This document shows positions 9,441 to 47,720 of a DNA stretch of 64,000 nt, one piece after another. Origin of the DNA: Microbotryum violaceum (taxonomy: Eukaryota); contig CDLV01000009.1 in the NCBI GenBank assembly GCA_001244265.2, positions 310,001-374,000 on the forward strand, written 5' to 3'. A program made the translations under genes and the position numbers. Within the stretch, counting starts at the first letter, position 1; the number at the start of each line of letters is the position of its first letter. The notes under the pieces were generated by a model. That model had not been told where the DNA came from, searched no databases, and saw only the letters and a program-made list of their open reading frames with translations.

Positions 9441-10316
9441 GCCAGAGCAGCGACCAAAGACGTTGAAGCGAGCGCGGGCTTGAGCTGGAGCGTCAGCGCG
9501 GCCGTGGCTGCGGTCGTCGCAATCGCAGTCGCGCGAGACAAGTGCTTGCGCCTGTTGGAACGAACTTGTTGGCGCACGCGAGTGGTTGATCCGGACAGAG
9601 TGTCGCACTTGCCCTCGGAACGCGTCGATGAGTAGCTGCAAAGGTGGGATCGCAGCTGAGGTGACGCGATGGGACGCGAAAAGAAGCGGTACGACGAGTC
9701 TGACAACGCGTACAGCGTGGATGGTTAAATTAGGCCGCCTCTTGGGCCGCCGCGAACCACACGAGCTAAGAGCAACGCTTTGGACTCGCTCTGGACGGGC
9801 GTGTTTGTCGCACGGACCGCGTGACGCGACAGCGGAGCCGCGGACGACGGTGAACCGCGACTATTACCGAGCACGCTGGCGTTGGAAGTGCTTCCTGCAT
9901 TGAAGCATGGTCCGTGTTTCCCAACCACAGAGCAAACAAAGCTCCGGTCCTCACCCCCCGAAAAGGTACCTGTGTCGAGCACAAGTACGTTACCTCATGG
10001 ATGCAAACTTAAACCAAGCACGGGCACGGCGGCTCCGAGGTTGCACCTCTCGGTATCATCTGCAACTTGATCGCTTTGCATTTGTGGTTCATGTTAATGG
10101 TAGTGAACTTTGATTGTGCTCGTGGCCTCAGCTAGCAAGTAGTGCCACCACACTGAAGCAGCAAAAAGAAAAGGGAACACTGTATGCATCGGCAGAGAAA
10201 ACTTGGCGCTCTCGGCGACGAGGGGGAAAGATTTTCGTCCAGCTTGACCTGGCCAGGAGCTCCTGTGCGCTGTTTCCTGCGACTGAGCAGTTGCAGCAAC
10301 ACCTCCACCCAGCGCT

Positions 10317-10405
10317 TCCCGCCACGCGGGATCGAACCGCGGACCCTCAGATCTACCATTAAACCGTTACAGTCTGATGCTCTTCCAAAGCTGAGCTATG
10401 GCGGG
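10317..10405 (-). tRNA. tRNA-Tyr(GUA) with 14-nt intron (10353-10366)
   Basis: Acceptor stem CCCGCCA/TGGCGGG+A; D-arm TAGCTCAG..GGAAGAGC; anticodon arm TCAGA-CTGTAA^A-TCTGA; T-loop GGTTCGATCC. Confidence 0.95.
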
Positions 10406-10828
10406 AAAACGACGCTAGGTGCTGTGTCAGCACGGTACGATGGACGTCATTTATGTGGGGGTCGCCTCGGCCGGGTCGTTTGGAGTCCGCATTAGGTGCT
10501 CGGCGGGCTTTGATCTGCGCAGCGCTGTTTGCGCGCAGGGGTTTGACTTTCACCCAACTGCTTGCCGTCGTTGCTTTATAACCTCCTTTAGCTCTTTTTG
10601 TAGCGGTCCCAGCCAACCCGAAGGATAGCAATTTATGAGCCCCAGTCAAAAAAACAAAAAAAAAACCTAGTTTTTCCGTAGGCCAATCAGGGGGAACAGG
10701 AATTGGGGGCAATATGATCAACAAGTTCTACAAAAAAAAAATCTACAGAAAAAAACAAAAACGCCGCAATTTCCCATGGGGAATGGCTTCCTGCCTCTTA
10801 CAATATACCGCCATCCCCGTGAAGCGAC

Positions 10829-41740: not shown

Positions 41741-42833
41741 CGTTCGCTTCTTCGCCCCTCTCCTCTCGCCCCCTTACGCAACTCGCCACGCCGCCTCGTT
41801 CGCACCTCTGCGTCAGGTTACACGTGAACAGCATTCTCAAATCACTTCCATCAATTTCGTCCCGCAACTCCGCGACCATTGACTGGCGTGGTTGTGCTGA
41901 GCAAGCCGAGGGAGACTTGGAACTACAACAACTCGAAGCCGAGCGCGATCTTGCCTGCGCGCAGCGTGACGTTCTTCAAGCACGAGTTGCTGCGCTCGAG
42001 ATCGCAAACGAGGGCATCAGAGGAAGGAATGAGTATTTAGAAAACCGCGATCGCGTCAAGGTAGAGCATGGTAAGTGTACCAGCTCGTCCCCAAGATTCA
42101 ACCTGTGTCTGCCGGAGCTAGCACGGACCGCTTTAGACCTTCTGCTGCTAGGCCAGTGCTACGGTGGACTCTCATCTCGCAAACCCCCTCGCAAACCTCT
42201 TGCAATACTCACTGAATCATTTTTTGAGCCTCGTCAAAACGACCCTGTGGATTGCAGAAAACAAGTCATCGCTATCGGAAGTTAGTCGTAAGCGTGTGCT
42301 CAACACGACGCAGCCTTCAAACAACGACAACCACACCGAGCACCTCTCCACCGACCCCACCTGCCTCAAGCTCCAAAACGAGCTGCAAGTGTACGTACGA
42401 CAGGAAGCCATCAAGGACCACCTGCACTTGATGAAGCTGGACGACGGCAAGGACGACCCCGAGGTCAACATCAATACGACGGCGCTGCGTGAGGTCAAGA
42501 TCGAGGCGGCCCACGGGGCCATGGCCAAAATTGAGCAGCGCAGCAACGGAGCCGTCAAGCCTGGCATGGCCCACCGTGACTACTCTGAGCGTCGCCGAAG
42601 TCGCATTCTCTAGCATTTTCGAGGCCGGCGTTGCTTTCGGCTCACAGCACAACGTTAGGGTCCAGCTCAATTTGCTGTCGATGTCATCGAAGTGAGGTAC
42701 CCTGCTCTGCAGATGTGGCCGGCTACTTCGCTCGTCGTCAAGCAACTTCTCGCCACCAAGATTGCGAATGTGGCCAAAGTTCCTCCACCGCCACTAAACG
42801 TTGCAAAGGCTTGAAGCACAACGTCGCTGCGAG
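41741..42833 (+). pseudogene. Left arm of long inverted duplication; frameshifted copy of an unknown spliced coiled-coil gene
   Basis: 41741-42557 is the reverse complement of 46240-47060 (ORF-track peptides identical). 42558-42833 is a diverged reverse complement of ~42905-43179, with frameshifts. Confidence 0.7.
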
Positions 42834-43404
42834 TCATTATGCGAGTCTTGGTGTCATTATGCGAGTCATCAACCATGACCTCGAAGCTTTTGGCGCTCGC
42901 AGAATCACTCGCAGTGACGTTGTCGTTCAAGCCTTTGCGACGTTTGGTGGCGCGGGTGGAGGAACTTTTCGCCACATTCGCAATTTTGGTGGCGAGAATT
43001 TGCTTGACGACGAGCAAAGTAGGCGGCCACATCTGCAGAGCCGGGTACCTCGATTCGATGATATCAACAGCTAATCGGACCCTGCTATCGTTCTGCGAGC
43101 CGAACGCAATGCCGGCCTTGAAGACACTGGAGGTTGCGAGTTCGGCAATGGTAGTAGTTACGGCGGGCCATGTGAGCGTTGTTGGAATCAACGAGGATCC
43201 CGAAATGATCAACAAAAGAATAAGAACGGCTGGACCAGGAGGTCGAACCTGGGTCGCTTCCATTAATCGGAAAAGCTTTGACCTCTAAGCTATCCGGCCC
43301 CCGATATCAGTGCAAGGTCTACTAACACCTTCAACACTTCCCCTTAGACCTTTGCACTGTTCTACAAAAAAAAAATGCTGCCAGGCTATTGCAATGCGTC
43401 GACT

Positions 43405-46035
43405 CTAAGTCCTAATTGGACTCTGTGTCAAGCTTCTGCGGCAGCTCCGGCTGCTCTGTGCGGCGTCACTGGAGAGATTTACATGAAAGGTTCTATAATA
43501 GATCCTCACAGTTCCCCTAGTCCAGACCTGGTACGCTTCAAGTTCCTCGATCCCGCAGATGCCCTCGGTGGTTCCTTGAACGATCGACGAAAGGTTGGTC
43601 CACCCATTGCATTCTTCGAGGTTGACGACGACGCTGAGGACTTGCTCCCATTCTGGAAGCTCGTTGAGGGGAATTACGTCTCCCAAGATGGTCCCCAAGT
43701 CGACGAACATGGCTTGCTGCTCTGCCCCCCCTCGACGGCGGGACCCTGCAGGAGCACCCCAGCGCTCGGCCAACTCGGAGGTCCGCTCCGTCGTAGGTAC
43801 CACCGGTTCGTAGCCATCAGGAATCGGATTCAGATCAGGTGGGTCGTTGTCAGCATCGTCGTCAAGAAAAGGAGACGGACGACGGGAGGCGACGGGAGGC
43901 GGTGCTCCACCGTCGCCAGCAACAGGAGCGGGCGCTCGACCGTTGGGAACAACAGGAGCTGGCGCTCGGCCGTTGGGAGCAACAGGAGCTGGCGCTCGAC
44001 CATTGGAAACAACAGGAGCCGGTGCTCGACGGGTGGGAACAATGGGAGTAAGCTCTTGAACATTGCTGTGTTGAACTCTATCGCCTGGAGCGCGCTCGCA
44101 ACCAGGTGCAGCGGGAGTGTACTCACGATCAGGAGCCCTTGCTCGACCGACCGGAGGAGGAGTGTTATCTCGACTGTTGCCGTCCGGAGCAAACGCTCTA
44201 CGGGCAGCAATAGGAGCCGTCGCTCGATCGTCTGTGCCAGGAGCCTGAGCTCGACCGGCCCCGTCGAGAGAAAAATCTTGTTCAACAGCATCATCGCCGT
44301 CGATGTCGAGGGATCCGGTCGGAGGATCGCCGAAGAGGGTAGTTGGCGAATCCTCACGAAGATCAGCGTCGTCCGAATTTCCCCGGTGAAGTTCGAATGA
44401 GCTCTCGTCGAAGTCCGCGTCATCCGATACGAACACAGTGTTGGTGTCGGGCCGCCAGAACATCCTTCCCTGCTCCGCGTAGCCAATGAAACGAGCCTTG
44501 ACTCTTGGCGGTTCGATCTTCGAGGCACGACGTTCTGGCGCAATCCGGACGTACGCCACGCAACCCCATACGCGAAAACGCGAGACATTGGGTTTGCGAA
44601 GGTGGTACATTTCGAAGGGTGTCGAACCCGGTAACGCCGCGGTAGGTCGACGATTGCTCCCATAGGTAAATGCGGTCGCCGCAAAGGCCCAGAAGGACAA
44701 CGGTAACCCCGAGACCAGGAGCCAGATCCGCACCGTCTCGAACATAGTGCGCCATCCTCGTTCGATGACTCCGTTCTGATAGTGGGCGTATGGAACTGTG
44801 GTCCTGTGCTCGATGCCCCGCTCCCGAAAGAATGCCTTCAGCGAGTTGTTGACGAACTCTCCACCATCGTCGGAGTGGAATATTGCCACGTTGCAGTCGC
44901 GACTTCGCTCGACTCGCTGAATGAACTCAACGACGAGAGCAGTGACGCTGGACTTCTTTCCGATCGGAAAACTCCATCGGAAACGCGAGTAGTCGTCGAC
45001 CAAGCCTAAAACCATGACCTCGCCGGCGAAGCTCTCGTGGCGCACCGGACCCCAGAGATCGGCGTGAATGGCGTGGAGTGGCTTATCGGCGCGGGAAGCC
45101 GGACCTTTCGAGATATTGGCGTGAACACCTCTTCCTTGCATGCAACCATGACATTTTGCTACGTCAAAATCTTCTTCCTTGATGCTCAACCCCATAACAG
45201 TCTCCTTTCGTTCCATCTCCAGCAGATAAGGCATATTCAGATGACCGAATCGTTGATGCCAAATTTCGCGATCTGCGGAGTTGGAACGTACGGAGACCGT
45301 CAGCGATTGTGCCTCGGTGGGGTTGAGGTTAGATAGACGAGCCTGAAAGATGTATTTTGATCCGACTAGTTGAGCGATGGCGAACGTCTGGCCGTCCTTG
45401 CTGAACTCGCAGCGGCCTTCTTCCATTTCGATGCGGACGCCCTGCTTGCACAACGAGGGTCCCGAGATAAGATTGACGACGAAGTTGGGAACGTGGAGGA
45501 CGTCGGCGATGGTCATCTTGGAGGTCGTGCCGTCAGCGAGTGCGAACTCGGCAGTGAGAGTTCCTCGCCCTACCGCCGGAGTGCGCGTTCCCGCTGCATC
45601 GATCATGAAGATCGGGCAATCTAACGTCGCATAGTCGCTCAACATGCATTTGTCGTTGACAAGCGACGTAGTGGCGCCGGTATCAAAAATCAGCTCCGGA
45701 GCCTCGGCCGTCGCCGCGCGAAAAATCGTCTGCTCGCGCACTTCCGCCGCATAGTTCGTGAAATGGAAGGAAGCACCCATACGATTCGCGAGACTCATGG
45801 GAACAGGATCCTCGACGAAGTATGTTCCATGACTTGCTACTGGAACGTTGATGTCGAGCGACTGGAGAAACGCAATCCTGTCACCCGTCGGGTTCCTTGA
45901 GTCGCATGCCGCCCGGCGATGGCCGAAGCCGAAGCAGTTCACAAATTGATTGTTTGCACACATGAACTTTCCGCCAACGATCTTGCCCCACTTGTCGGAG
46001 TTGGCGTAGTGTTCCGCGCGGGTTTTGGCTCCCAC
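43405..46035 (-). CDS. Copia-type polyprotein fragment: degenerate zinc knuckle, aspartic protease, HHCC, DDE integrase, SH3; no RT/RNase H
   Basis: FVNCFGFGHRRAAC; IFDTGAT; WHQRFGH..CHGC; HADLWGP..SDDGGEF-x35-E(QNGVIER); FRVWGCVAYV. Confidence 0.9.
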   Translation of the reverse strand: MGAKTRAEHYANSDKWGKIVGGKFMCANNQFVNCFGFGHRRAACDSRNPTGDRIAFLQSLDINVPVASHGTYFVEDPVPMSLANRMGASFHFTNYAAEVREQTIFRAATAEAPELIFDTGATTSLVNDKCMLSDYATLDCPIFMIDAAGTRTPAVGRGTLTAEFALADGTTSKMTIADVLHVPNFVVNLISGPSLCKQGVRIEMEEGRCEFSKDGQTFAIAQLVGSKYIFQARLSNLNPTEAQSLTVSVRSNSADREIWHQRFGHLNMPYLLEMERKETVMGLSIKEEDFDVAKCHGCMQGRGVHANISKGPASRADKPLHAIHADLWGPVRHESFAGEVMVLGLVDDYSRFRWSFPIGKKSSVTALVVEFIQRVERSRDCNVAIFHSDDGGEFVNNSLKAFFRERGIEHRTTVPYAHYQNGVIERGWRTMFETVRIWLLVSGLPLSFWAFAATAFTYGSNRRPTAALPGSTPFEMYHLRKPNVSRFRVWGCVAYVRIAPERRASKIEPPRVKARFIGYAEQGRMFWRPDTNTVFVSDDADFDESSFELHRGNSDDADLREDSPTTLFGDPPTGSLDIDGDDAVEQDFSLDGAGRAQAPGTDDRATAPIAARRAFAPDGNSRDNTPPPVGRARAPDREYTPAAPGCERAPGDRVQHSNVQELTPIVPTRRAPAPVVSNGRAPAPVAPNGRAPAPVVPNGRAPAPVAGDGGAPPPVASRRPSPFLDDDADNDPPDLNPIPDGYEPVVPTTERTSELAERWGAPAGSRRRGGAEQQAMFVDLGTILGDVIPLNELPEWEQVLSVVVNLEECNGWTNLSSIVQGTTEGICGIEELEAYQVWTRGTVRIYYRTFHVNLSSDAAQSSRSCRRSLTQSPIRT
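43921..44040. repeat. 30-bp x4 coding tandem repeat (xPNGRAPAPV) in the post-integrase linker
   Basis: AACAGGAGC.GG.GCTCG units read directly. Confidence 0.9.
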
Positions 46036-47720
46036 GCGAGTACCGGTGCGACCATGTCCTCCCGAGCGGTAACTACTCCTGGTGGGACCCGCGTGGCCCC
46101 TAGGCTGACCAGCTGTCGCGAATGCGTGGGGTTGCTGTCGACGCAGTCCGCGCCTCCCTGGCCAAAATGGCTTAAACTACTCAGAAACCCCAAAGACGCT
46201 TCTAGCCATTACTGCTCGCGCAGTCCCTTCCAACAAGCGTGACGGCTCCGTTGCTGCGCTGCTCAATTTTGGCCATGGCCCCGTGGGCCGCCTCGATCTT
46301 GACCTCACGCAGCGCCGTCGTATTGATGTTGACCTCGGGGTCGTCCTTGCCGTCGTCCAGCTTCATCAAGTGCAGGTGGTCCTTGATGGCTTCCTGTCGT
46401 ACGTACACTTGCAGCTCGTTTTGGAGCTTGAGGCAGGTGGGGTCGGTGGAGAGGTGCTCGGTGTGGTTGTCGTTGTTTGAAGGCTGCGTCGTGTTGAGCA
46501 CACGCTTACGACTAACTTCCGATAGCGATGACTTGTTTTCTGCAATCCACAGGGTCGTTTTGACGAGGCTCAAAAAATGATTCAGTGAGTATTGCAAGAG
46601 GTTTGCGAGGGGGTTTGCGAGATGAGAGTCCACCGTAGCACTGGCCTAGCAGCAGAAGGTCTAAAGCGGTCCGTGCTAGCTCCGGCAGACACAGGTTGAA
46701 TCTTGGGGACGAGCTGGTACACTTACCATGCTCTACCTTGACGCGATCGCGGTTTTCTAAATACTCATTCCTTCCTCTGATGCCCTCGTTTGCGATCTCG
46801 AGCGCAGCAACTCGTGCTTGAAGAACGTCACGCTGCGCGCAGGCAAGATCGCGCTCGGCTTCGAGTTGTTGTAGTTCCAAGTCTCCCTCGGCTTGCTCAG
46901 CACAACCACGCCAGTCAATGGTCGCGGAGTTGCGGGACGAAATTGATGGAAGTGATTTGAGAATGCTGTTCACGTGTAACCTGACGCAGAGGTGCGAACG
47001 AGGCGGCGTGGCGAGTTGCGTAAGGGGGCGAGAGGAGAGGGGCGAATTCGGAAGCGAACGTCGAACGCGACAATTCACAGCGCGCCGGCGAAGTTGTGTG
47101 TTTTGTTGAGCTAGGTATAACGACGCTGAGGGAGAAGCGATTGCTTTCTTTGGTCGATGTCTTCACAGTTGCCATGGACATCCGGGGGTCGTGCCAAAGA
47201 TTCGATGTGGATGGTCCTCGCACCCTCAGCCTGATCGGCGTCGAGCGTCTCCGCCAAGTCGTGTCCATCATCCCGAATACGATGCGGTCGCCTCCCACCG
47301 CGGGCGAGCTTGCGCAAGGCGCAGGGCCAGCTGTAACAGCTCCCAACACATATGCGAAATCTGTGTTTCCACCTTCAACTGCGACCCCTCTGCACCGAGT
47401 CGACGCCTGGCACTGACACGAGGCAGAGCGCTCTCCATTCGGTGGTCCGGTTGAAGATACAGGGGCCCGGTTTTTCCAATTGCTCATTAGCTTCAATCCT
47501 TTAGAAACCTTCCAAGACCACCACATGTTCGAATCTGGAGATGGTACACGTTGTTAGGTTGATGTATGTAATCAGAGCACCACTCGAGACTATATCACGA
47601 GTTGTTGGCTGAACTAGCTAAGGTCTCAAAGTCAGGCTGTTCTCGCTTAATTAGTCTACGAGCCAACTGGTCAATGCAGGGCGTAATGGAGCATTTCCAA
47701 GTTGGCGACCTCGTGCAGTT

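What the first reader, a model, noticed from the sequence alone, without database searches (positions are those of the whole stretch)
43175..46240. Copia-derived, RT-less, LTR-pair-less element with intact integrase, inverted termini and a clean 5-bp TSD: a possible DNA-transposon-like derivative
Seen: the 3,056-bp element is flanked by AGCGT on both sides and both ends read TGTTGGAA inward. One uninterrupted ~870-codon frame keeps the protease (DTG), HHCC and a full D..D-35-E integrase. It stops right after the linker (EELEAYQVW resembles the RT start) with no RT or RNase H motifs. Only the 3' end has a PPT plus a 157-bp LTR-like block; the 5' end shares only about 10 nt with that block (TGTTGGAAGG vs TGTTGAAGG), has no visible PBS and runs into the gag C-terminus. 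Known: retrotransposition yields identical LTRs, Copia integrases make 5-bp TSDs, and Ginger elements are DNA transposons with Gypsy-like integrases. Inference: either two post-insertion deletions spared PR-IN, or this is a Copia-integrase element moving without RT.
Basis: partly seen in the sequence, partly recalled or inferred. Interest (0 to 1): 0.85.

Follow-up and report, generated by a model that had tools for sequence, protein, structure and literature searches.

The report
Decayed Copia retrotransposon with tRNA-like LTR
This is a broken copy of an ordinary Copia-type retrotransposon lodged in a gene of an anther-smut fungus (Microbotryum), not a new kind of DNA transposon, although its surviving end carries an unusual tRNA-like piece.

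Summary
A 3,056-bp insertion (43180-46235, minus strand) has a 5-bp duplication (AGCGT), 8-nt inverted termini and a 923-codon open frame with protease and integrase but no reverse transcriptase.

The DNA-transposon reading is not supported. The host is Microbotryum. Relatives at 92% identity carry RT (Pfam RVT_2, plus about 250 more residues). M. silenes-dioicae has the same insertion: same host junctions, same RT gap. That copy still holds the 5'UTR and the whole gag, so the 5' truncation arose in place. The element's first 24-31 nt equal the last pol codons and stop of RT-bearing relatives, so the integrating template still had a pol 3' end. The frame has no start, its gag zinc knuckle is mutated, and both same-site copies show changes in conserved motifs.

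Best reading (0.85): a decaying Ty1/Copia copy with two internal deletions.

By-product: the 157-nt 3' block, preceded by a polypurine tract, contains a degenerate tRNA-like sequence with box A, box B and a T-run. This is the architecture of Helenus-type LTRs, known from rust fungi and reported absent from Microbotryum. No Microbotryum DNA was available, so I could not test whether it is a repeated family.

The parts
43175..43179 (.). Left copy of the 5-bp target-site duplication (AGCGT)
   Evidence: Residues 43-44 of the uninterrupted homologue P0035 align on both sides of the element. The in-silico empty site gives a continuous frame.
46236..46240 (.). Right copy of the 5-bp target-site duplication (AGCGT)
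43180..46235 (-). Whole inserted element, 3,056 bp: a defective Ty1/Copia copy, single in the window
   Evidence: In one search, blastn of the element against the window gives only itself, its internal 30-nt repeats and 4 short matches with E >= 0.013.
46138..46235 (-). 5' LTR remnant of at most 98 nt. It starts TGTTGGAAGG and its first 24-31 nt equal the last codons and stop of pol in RT-bearing relatives.
   Evidence: CWKGLREQ* of P0003 and VGRDCASSNG* of P0006 match two frames of the first 31 nt; gag homology starts at 46137.
45904..45960 (-). gag C-terminal zinc knuckle. The first Cys is replaced by Phe (FVNC-FGFG-H-RRAA-C, where relatives have CVNC...).
   Evidence: private change C78F; relatives.
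45439..45690 (-). Aspartic protease (Pfam Pol_BBD, residues 163-246), with DTGA at 45682-45684
45133..45318 (-). GAG-pre-integrase / integrase zinc-binding region (H307, H312, C342, C345)
44788..45084 (-). Integrase catalytic core (rve): D373 (45058-60), D436 (44869-71), E472 (44761-63)
44395..44598 (-). Integrase C-terminal SH3-like domain (PF25597)
43859..44065 (-). Five tandem 30-nt units in the Pro/Ala-rich IN-RT linker (NGRAPAPV repeats), also present in relatives
   Evidence: (family D1).
43519..43548 (-). Stub of the RT N-terminus (EELEAYQVWT). Protein homology to relatives ends at 43519; the frame is shifted afterwards.
   Evidence: RVT_2 of P0003 starts about 40 residues further on.
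43346..43518 (-). Non-coding stretch between the RT stub and the polypurine tract; contains a T10 run. Origin unresolved: either the interior of a long family LTR / 3'UTR, or the internal part of a Helenus-like element.
   Evidence: Shared with the M. silenes-dioicae same-site copy (P0002 exon QPELPQKLDTESN...).
43337..43345 (-). Polypurine tract AAGGGGAAG directly 5' of TGTTG
   Evidence: the only run of 8 or more purines before any of 172 TGTTG on both strands of the window.
43180..43336 (-). 157-nt LTR-like block (TGTTGAAGG...GATTCCAACA) with Helenus-type architecture
   Evidence: Compared by eye with the Helenus LTR consensus sequences and lengths in the supplement of PMC10886601.
43227..43299 (-). 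Degenerate tRNA-like sequence ('Sup-TTA'). It has A at position 33, an 8-nt T loop and an acceptor-stem mismatch; box A and box B are kept.
   Evidence: ARAGORN. Rfam tRNA 41.5 bits against a gathering score of 29. No cloverleaf as MFE, z = -1.45.
43214..43217 (-). T4 run 10 nt downstream of the tRNA-like sequence (Pol III terminator-like)
   Evidence: read directly.
42868..43174 (-). Downstream part of the interrupted host coding sequence (TWPAVTTTIAELATSS...)
   Evidence: P0034-P0037.
46241..46943 (-). Upstream part of the interrupted host gene (two aligned exon blocks, ending ...IEQRSNGAVT)
41751..42563 (+). Left arm of an inverted duplication of the host gene. It holds an uninterrupted but diverged and frameshifted version of the target site, and is about 100% identical to 46234-47046.
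   Evidence: (I1).

Best explanation
The feature is a dead-on-site copy of an ordinary Ty1/Copia LTR retrotransposon of Microbotryum.

It was made by reverse transcription of an RNA that still contained the 3' end of pol. The family's own integrase inserted it into a host coding exon, which produced the 5-bp duplication and the TG...CA termini.

It then lost two internal pieces.
1. An older deletion runs from just after the start of RT to a point about 340 nt before the 3' end. It removed RT, RNase H and the beginning of the 3' LTR. The M. silenes-dioicae copy shares it.
2. A younger deletion, private to this lineage, runs from at most 98 nt inside the 5' LTR to the C-terminal part of gag. It removed the rest of the 5' LTR, the PBS, the 5'UTR and about 277 codons of gag.

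What remains (PR, IN and the linker) stays open simply because it is young. It cannot move in this form.

Shown: the insertion boundaries, the domain content, the existence of RT-bearing relatives, and the same-site copy with gag. Inferred: the order of events, and that the family LTR runs from the TGTTGGAAGG start to the TTCCAACA end and therefore includes the tRNA-like block.
For: Family and host
- Of 33 proteins with E <= 0.001, 12 are Microbotryum gene models. The best is 97% identical.
- 4 of those 12 carry precomputed RVT_2 (P0003, P0006, P0008, P0009).
- P0003 (92% identity) has RVT_2 at residues 914-1142 of 1389. The window's homology to it stops at residue 872.

Same-site copy in M. 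silenes-dioicae
- P0023 and P0002 are adjacent models (C004g02612 and g02611) on one 1,412,762-bp contig.
- P0023 reads host ...IEQRSNGAVTL, then the 5'UTR and the full gag N-terminus.
- P0002 reads PR-IN...EELEAYQVWTRGT, then QPELPQKLDTESN... (the window's 3' stretch), then the host right flank at 94.9% over 158 residues.
- The RT-gap junction is therefore shared and the 5' truncation is not.

5' end equals the pol 3' end
- The element's first 24-31 nt translate in two frames to the exact C-termini and stops of P0003 and P0006.
- U3 at the 5' end is copied from the 3' end of the template RNA (established retrotransposon biology). The template therefore had the pol 3' end that this copy now lacks.

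Decay
- There is no Met before residue 72 and gag residues 1-277 are absent.
- 15 private substitutions include C78F in the CCHC knuckle, N437D next to catalytic D436, and W571R.
- Against the same-site copy P0002, 14 of 787 aligned residues differ: 7 derived on each side, and several in conserved motifs.
- An open frame is expected at this age. Only 3.2% of single substitutions create a stop, so P(no stop) is 0.72 after 10 substitutions and 0.52 after 20.

Size
- At 3,056 bp it lies below the 5-7.5 kb that Duhamel et al. 2023 treat as intact Microbotryum Copia (PMC10502011, passages read).
Against: - No Microbotryum DNA other than this window could be read. The structure of relatives is known only through predicted, spliced gene models. 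In the M. silenes-dioicae copy the 5' LTR and the tRNA-like block lie in predicted introns and were not seen.
- Three other M. silenes-dioicae models (P0001, P0004, P0005) also lack RVT_2. They end ...PTYKQAVRQTAVH*, about 10 codons beyond the point where the window copy leaves the family frame. If that is the same deletion at other loci, an RT-less form has spread.
- The 3' block has its own good PPT and TG start, which differ from the 5' end. So the copy has, on its face, two different LTR starts.
- Amino-acid divergence from the same-site copy is lower in the element (14 of 787, 1.8%) than in the host flanks (5 of 138 and 8 of 158). Mild constraint on the ORF cannot be excluded without dN/dS.
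Confidence: 0.85

Rival explanations
1. Non-autonomous RT-less Copia derivative. The gag-PR-IN form with the RT/RNase H deletion is a trans-mobilised retroelement that uses the 157-nt tRNA-like block as its LTR and AAGGGGAAG as its PPT. This locus received such a copy, and only the 5' deletion happened in place.
For: - The 3' PPT and the 157-nt block are intact and bounded by TG...CA.
- Three further M. silenes-dioicae gene models on two other contigs (P0001 and P0004 on C053, P0005 on C138) have gag-PR-IN, lack RVT_2 and stop near the same point.
- Fungal Helenus elements with tRNA-like LTRs are thought to be mobilised by Copia and make 5-bp duplications (PMC10886601, abstract and sections 3.2 and 3.6 read).
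Against: - The 5' end of the window copy is not the start of the 157-nt block. It is the sequence found at the pol 3' end of RT-bearing relatives, which an RT-less template would not contain.
- The tails of P0001, P0004 and P0005 (KQAVRQTAVH*) differ from the window/P0002 junction (QVWTRGT...). They may be a different lesion or truncated gene models.
- C053 and C138 are small contigs (65 kb and 15 kb), so their copies may be duplicates of one locus.
- No other copy of the 3' stretch was found through protein translations.
Confidence: 0.1
2. Chimera. The last ~340 nt (internal stretch + PPT + tRNA-like LTR) come from a separate Helenus-like TRIM family of Microbotryum. They were joined to a Copia copy by template switching between co-packaged RNAs or by later recombination, rather than being part of the Copia family's own LTR.
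For: - The stretch has the layout of the 3' half of a Helenus element: internal portion, G-rich PPT, and an LTR starting TGTTGAAG.
- The LTR holds a tRNA-like core with box A/B and a T-run, and ends ...AACA.
- Its 157 nt lies within the 106-284 nt LTR lengths listed for Puccinia Helenus families in the part of Table S1 that I read.
- It shares no similarity with the 5' LTR remnant.
Against: - Reverse transcription gives identical LTRs at both ends even from two templates, so a chimera made in the particle should start with the block's own TGTTGAAGG. It does not.
- Post-insertion recombination would not normally keep a perfect 5-bp duplication.
- The element's two actual ends form a perfect 8-nt inverted repeat (TGTTGGAA/TTCCAACA), while the block's own start does not pair as well with its end. 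That fits one long LTR running from the 5' start to the 3' end.
- Kojima 2024 found no Helenus in Microbotryum (section 3.2).
Confidence: 0.15
3. One reading: a Copia-integrase element that transposes as DNA without reverse transcription, using its inverted termini (a Copia counterpart of Ginger).
For: - The integrase motifs are intact, there is a clean 5-bp duplication, and the termini are 8-nt inverted repeats.
Against: - The same insertion in M. silenes-dioicae has gag and the 5'UTR, so the present form arose in place.
- The ORF has no start codon or promoter-bearing 5' region.
- Both same-site copies accumulate changes in conserved motifs at equal rates, 7 and 7.
- The inverted repeat is only the normal LTR terminus, whereas Ginger1 has TIRs of 40-270 bp (abstract of PMC2836005).
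- The element is a single copy in the window.
- The 5' end is templated from a pol 3' end.
Confidence: 0.01

Closest known systems
Ty1/Copia LTR retrotransposons of Microbotryum (e.g. M. silenes-dioicae gene models BQ5605_C006g03868, C043g12086)
   Same: - 92-97% amino-acid identity over gag C-terminus, PR, IN and linker.
- Same domain order, and the same Pro/Ala-rich 30-nt repeat linker.
- 5-bp duplication and TG...CA ends.
   Different: This copy lacks RT/RNase H, the gag N-terminus, the PBS and most of the 5' LTR. At 3.06 kb it is well below the 5-7.5 kb taken as intact Copia in Microbotryum (PMC10502011, passages read).
Helenus (TRIMp3) non-autonomous LTR retrotransposons of rust fungi, Kojima 2024 (PMC10886601)
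   Same: - The LTR starts TGTTGAAG/TGTTGGAA and ends ...AACA.
- A G-rich PPT lies directly upstream.
- A tRNA-derived core with box A (TAGCTTAG.GGT) and box B (GGTTCGA) is followed by a T-run, and is unlikely to be a functional tRNA.
- tRNA finders call a 'suppressor' tRNA.
- 5-bp duplications and an association with Copia.
- By eye the core resembles Helenus-9_PSt and Helenus-6_PTrit.
   Different: - Helenus elements are 311-1263 bp, non-coding, and have two LTR copies and a PBS. Here one block sits at the end of a 3-kb protein-coding Copia remnant, with no second copy or PBS.
- The paper reports no Helenus in Microbotryum.
- No formal alignment was made, because the consensus sequences could not be entered into the tools.
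Ginger1/Ginger2 DNA transposons (Bao, Kapitonov, Jurka 2010, PMC2836005; abstract read)
   Same: They encode a retroelement-type DDE integrase, and their termini resemble LTR ends.
   Different: - Ginger integrases are Gypsy-like, with YPYY and GPY/F motifs.
- Ginger1 TIRs are 40-270 bp.
- Ginger1 TSDs are specific for CCGG or CCGT.
- There is no gag or protease.
- Here the integrase is Copia-type, the TIR is 8 nt, gag and PR remnants are present, and the form arose by deletion in place.
Cassandra TRIMs (5S rRNA in the LTR), as described in the introduction of PMC10886601
   Same: A Pol III-type small-RNA gene is embedded in an LTR.
   Different: Cassandra carries 5S rather than tRNA, is found in plants, and is a short non-coding element.

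Membership tests
Ty1/Copia LTR retrotransposon | Polyprotein order gag-PR-IN-RT-RNase H with Copia-type domains (gag_pre-integrs, rve, RVT_2) | tested here: met
   This copy has gag C-terminus, PR, gag_pre-integrs, rve, SH3-like and an RT stub in that order. Relative P0003 continues into RVT_2 at residues 914-1142. RT and RNase H themselves are deleted from this copy.
Ty1/Copia LTR retrotransposon | 5-bp target-site duplication and TG...CA termini | tested here: met
   AGCGT on both sides and TGTTGGAA...TTCCAACA. The empty site is confirmed by the uninterrupted homologue P0035.
Ty1/Copia LTR retrotransposon | Two direct LTR copies | tested here: not met
   The 5' 98 nt and the 3' 340 nt share no similarity beyond chance. 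This is explained here by deletions that removed complementary parts of the two LTRs; that explanation is an inference.
Ty1/Copia LTR retrotransposon | PBS after the 5' LTR and PPT before the 3' LTR | tested here: inconclusive
   The PPT AAGGGGAAG is present at 43337-43345. The PBS region is absent from this copy: gag homology starts 98 nt from the 5' end. No formal tRNA-complementarity scan was run.
Ginger-like integrase DNA transposon | Long terminal inverted repeats (Ginger1: 40-270 bp) | tested here: not met
   The inverted termini are 8 nt. No longer inverted repeat between the ends appears among the 25 longest of 36 pairs listed.
Ginger-like integrase DNA transposon | Gypsy-type integrase (YPYY, GPY/F); no gag or PR | tested here: not met
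   The Pfam hits and the nearest relatives are Copia-type (gag_pre-integrs, PF25597). A gag zinc knuckle and a protease are present.
Ginger-like integrase DNA transposon | Several copies of the same form with different duplications, or empty alleles | not testable with these tools
   No Microbotryum genome DNA was available. The only other copy seen at this site (M. silenes-dioicae) has a more complete 5' half.
Helenus / TRIMp3 | tRNA-derived sequence with box A/B and a T-run inside an LTR bounded by TG...CA and preceded by a PPT | tested here: met
   ARAGORN and Rfam tRNA (41.5 bits) at 43227-43299. A T4 run lies 10 nt downstream. The block 43180-43336 starts TGTTG, ends CAACA, and has the PPT at 43337-43345.
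Helenus / TRIMp3 | Short (311-1263 bp) non-coding element with two LTR copies and a PBS | tested here: not met
   There is one block only, attached to a 2.7-kb coding remnant. No second copy exists in the element or the window.
Helenus / TRIMp3 | Repeated family in the genome | not testable with these tools
   Indirect searches through translated frames found no other copy. In one search, 0 of 26 candidates passed. In one search, all 4 hits fell in the host part. Only two of six frames were tried.

The most novel reading that the evidence does not exclude
The LTR of this Microbotryum Copia family, or of a partner element that recombined with it, carries a Helenus-type tRNA-derived Pol III module. 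That would be the first such LTR in Microbotryum, where it was reported absent. It would also be the first seen attached to a protein-coding Copia backbone rather than a miniature element. It would be a candidate intermediate for how tRNA-bearing TRIMs arise from, or exchange ends with, their autonomous Copia partners. The family would contain two usable PPT/LTR-start sites.
Probability: 0.3. Interest if true: 0.55.

Novelty: new member of a known kind. Interest (0 to 1): 0.3.

Why it matters
The main result is negative and useful. A clean duplication, inverted termini and a long open integrase frame can all be left by ordinary in-place decay of a young Copia copy. One comparison with a sister species settles the question.

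The side result is modest but real. A tRNA-like, Pol III-type module inside an LTR block in Microbotryum extends the known range of Helenus-type LTRs within the fungal group that contains the rusts. It sits on a coding Copia remnant, which bears on how such miniature elements originate. It also explains a spurious 'suppressor tRNA' call that genome annotators would otherwise report.

Tried and rejected
- **Other copies in the window.** blastn and tblastn of the element against the window found none.
- **A real tRNA gene or functional suppressor.** Rejected: A at position 33, an 8-nt T loop, an acceptor mismatch, 41.5 bits only, and no cloverleaf as MFE (z = -1.45; 24 of 200 shuffles fold as well).
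- **Pol III transcription of the whole element.** Unlikely: 12 runs of T4 or longer lie on the sense strand.
- **5' remnant and 3' block as overlapping parts of one LTR.** No similarity.
- **Other copies of the 3' stretch through translated frames.** The antisense ORF 43348-44400, residues 1-56, gave 0 of 26 candidates. The sense-frame ORF 42667-43284 against 1.84 billion representatives gave 4 hits, all in the host part. Four frames were not tried.
- **Gene models that read from the 5'UTR into the 5' LTR.** Only P0023 and P0011 were found. The N-terminus of P0011 shows no similarity to the window's ends.
- **N-terminal ~340 residues of P0002.** From recall I suspected a Helitron-type piece.
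- **P0001-type tails as the same RT deletion.** I tried by hand to align ...KQAVRQTAVH* with the window DNA. The result is suggestive at best and I do not rely on it.
- **Collections.** Genome contigs holds only bacteria and archaea and was not used. No fungal DNA outside the window was examined.
- **Supplement PDFs.** Figures S1-S3 of PMC10886601 could not be read. They may show tRNA-like structures and PBS types relevant to the comparison.

Full report
**What is there**

The element occupies 43180-46235 on the minus strand and is 3,056 bp long. It is flanked by AGCGT at 43175-43179 and 46236-46240, and both ends read TGTTGGAA inward. TGTTGGAA occurs only 4 times on both strands of the window, and two of those are these ends.

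The boundaries do not rest on the 5-nt match alone. A search of 1.84 billion representative proteins with the ORF that crosses the 3' junction returned 4 proteins, all matching the host part. These are uninterrupted versions of the host gene. P0035 aligns to the window up to residue 44 (...IEQRSNGAVTL) at 46235 and resumes at residue 43 (TLTWPAVTTT...) at 43179. Two residues are therefore covered twice, which is the duplication. Removing the element and one copy of the 5 nt gives a continuous frame that matches P0035 across the junction. The insertion interrupts a coding exon of a conserved Microbotryum gene with no Pfam domain.

**Coding content**

The frame 43405-46176 (-) is open for 923 codons from stop to stop. 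Pfam finds Pol_BBD (protease), gag_pre-integrs, rve and the retroviral SH3-like domain, and no reverse transcriptase. The following motifs are present:
- DTGA at residue 165.
- H307/H312 and C342/C345.
- D373, D436 and E472, with 35 residues between D436 and E472.

The observation as written is therefore confirmed.

**Organism and family**

Of 33 proteins with E <= 0.001, 12 are Microbotryum gene models. The best (M. silenes-dioicae) are 97% identical. Four of the 12 carry RVT_2. P0003 (92% identity) has RVT_2 at residues 914-1142 of 1389, while the window's homology to it stops at residue 872, window position 43519. At the other end, homology to gag starts at 46137 and corresponds to residue 278 of P0001. 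About 277 codons of gag, the 5'UTR and the PBS are therefore missing. The window is otherwise gene-rich, with a ubiquitin hydrolase, cyclophilin, a mitochondrial carrier, dihydroxy-acid dehydratase and a SNF2 helicase. It holds no other copy of the element.

**The same insertion in a sister genome**

P0023 and P0002 are adjacent gene models (C004g02612 and g02611) on one 1.41-Mb contig of M. silenes-dioicae.
- P0023 reads the host protein up to ...IEQRSNGAVTL, then the element's 5'UTR and the complete gag N-terminus. Its host part matches 46645-46232 at 96.4%.
- P0002 reads PR-IN-linker...EELEAYQVWTRGT, then QPELPQKLDTESN...VQRSKG, which is the window's stretch 43340-43462. It then reads the host right flank (43143-42670) at 94.9%.

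Both host junctions and the RT-gap junction are shared, but the M. silenes-dioicae copy still has gag. The 5' truncation therefore happened in place in the window's lineage. One caveat applies: these are spliced gene predictions, and the 5' LTR and the tRNA-like block lie in predicted introns and were not seen.

**The 5' end**

The element's first 24-31 nt translate, in two frames, to CWKGLREQ* and VGRDCASSNG*. These are the exact C-termini and stops of the RT-bearing relatives P0003 and P0006. The family's LTR therefore starts inside the last codons of pol.

Combining the two overlapping frames of P0003 (...RQGAC...) and P0006 (...ARGRV...) fixes the DNA just upstream as CAGGGGGCG. This is a G-rich PPT like those at the end of the rust Copia/Helenus internal regions. 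It is an inference and assumes both copies share the DNA.

The 5' U3 is copied from the 3' end of the template RNA (established retrotransposon biology). The RNA that made this copy therefore had a pol 3' end, and the RT/RNase H deletion, or at least its 3' part, came after integration.

**Decay**

- No Met occurs before residue 72.
- 15 private substitutions include C78F (first Cys of the CCHC knuckle), N437D next to catalytic D436, and W571R.
- Against the same-site copy, 14 of 787 residues differ, 7 derived on each side. Those in P0002 include DNGGEF to DNGREF.
- After ...QVWT the window frame departs from the family frame. By hand, the DNA still resembles the next ~8 family codons with indels (inference).
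- The long open frame is not evidence of selection. Only 3.2% of single substitutions make a stop, so P(no stop) is 0.72 after 10 substitutions and 0.52 after 20.
- One result points the other way: the element's amino-acid divergence (1.8%) is lower than that of the flanks (5 of 138 and 8 of 158). The flanks lie in an inverted duplication that may exchange sequence, so I draw no conclusion from this.

**The 3' end**

AAGGGGAAG (43337-43345) is the only run of 8 or more purines before any of the 172 TGTTG in the window. It precedes a 157-nt block, TGTTGAAGG...GATTCCAACA, that ends at the host junction.

Inside the block, at 43227-43299, ARAGORN calls a 'tRNA-Sup(tta)' and Rfam's tRNA model scores 41.5 bits against a gathering score of 29. 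The sequence is degenerate:
- It has A at position 33, an 8-nt T loop and an acceptor mismatch.
- It does not fold into a cloverleaf as MFE (z = -1.45).
- It keeps box A and box B.
- A T4 run follows 10 nt downstream.

This is the architecture of Helenus, the tRNA-bearing TRIMs that Kojima described from rust fungi. Those elements make 5-bp duplications, are thought to be mobilised by Copia, and cause spurious suppressor-tRNA predictions. The paper states that none was found in Microbotryum (PMC10886601: abstract, sections 1, 3.1 and 4 read, plus passages of 3.2, 3.5 and 3.6 from a term search; supplement parts 1 and 9 read). The 157 nt lies within the 106-284 nt LTR lengths listed for Puccinia families in the part of Table S1 that I read. 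By eye the core resembles Helenus-9_PSt and Helenus-6_PTrit. I made no formal alignment. Two literature searches found no report of such an LTR in Microbotryum.

**How the two ends fit together**

The 5' remnant and the 3' 340 nt share nothing beyond chance. On its face the copy therefore has two different LTR starts.

The simplest model is that the family LTR is long. It would run from TGTTGGAAGG to TTCCAACA, which are a perfect 8-nt inverted pair, and would contain the tRNA-like block with a relic internal PPT and TG start. The 5' copy kept only its first 98 nt or fewer, and the 3' copy only its last ~340 nt.

The alternatives are a chimera with a separate Helenus-like element, or an RT-less form that spread using the short block as its LTR. 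Both are weakened by the 5' end being pol-derived, but they cannot be excluded without Microbotryum DNA.

Three further M. silenes-dioicae models (P0001, P0004, P0005) lack RVT_2 and end ...PTYKQAVRQTAVH*. Whether this is the same deletion, a second one, or a truncated model is open.

**Comparison with Ginger**

Ginger1 elements have TIRs of 40-270 bp, Gypsy-type integrases and CCGG/CCGT-specific duplications (abstract of PMC2836005). None of these features applies here.

**Verdict**

This is an ordinary decaying Copia copy (confidence 0.85). The DNA-transposon idea is not supported (about 0.01). The one point worth following is the Helenus-type tRNA-like LTR block in Microbotryum.

Noticed in passing
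window 41751-42563 and 46234-47046; inner arms 42670-42845 and 42896-43075: The host gene lies in an inverted duplication. The outer arms are about 100% identical over 813 nt and the inner arms only 85-90% with indels. The perfect identity stops within 5 nt of the insertion site (46241). This may be gene conversion between the arms that was stopped by the 3-kb heterology.
   Followed up: partly
window 42431-42778 (+): The left-arm copy of the host gene has no insertion, but it is frameshifted and carries stops around the target site (...NGAVKPGMAHRDYSE...*). Neither copy of this gene looks intact in the window.
   Followed up: partly
window 43308-43321 and 43345-43359: An imperfect 14/15-nt inverted repeat brackets the polypurine tract and the first 15 nt of the 157-nt block, forming a potential hairpin with a 23-nt loop. 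Its meaning is unknown.
   Followed up: no
window 43859-44065: Five tandem 30-nt units encode NGRAPAPV-type repeats in the integrase-RT linker. The same repeats occur in the M. silenes-dioicae relatives.
   Followed up: no
M. silenes-dioicae gene model P0002, residues 1-340 (no window coordinates): In the same-site copy, an unrelated ~340-residue segment is fused in front of the protease in the gene model. P0023 breaks off in gag at ...KWGKIVDGKF. Something else therefore seems to be inserted between gag and PR there. Pfam gives no match.
   Followed up: partly
window 10316-10406 (-): An ordinary tRNA-Leu(taa) gene; it is unrelated to the element.
   Followed up: no
M. silenes-dioicae gene models P0001, P0004, P0005 (contigs C053, C138): Three further gag-PR-IN models lack RVT_2 and all end ...PTYKQAVRQTAVH*. 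They may be a second RT-less lineage of the same Copia family, or truncated gene models.
   Followed up: partly
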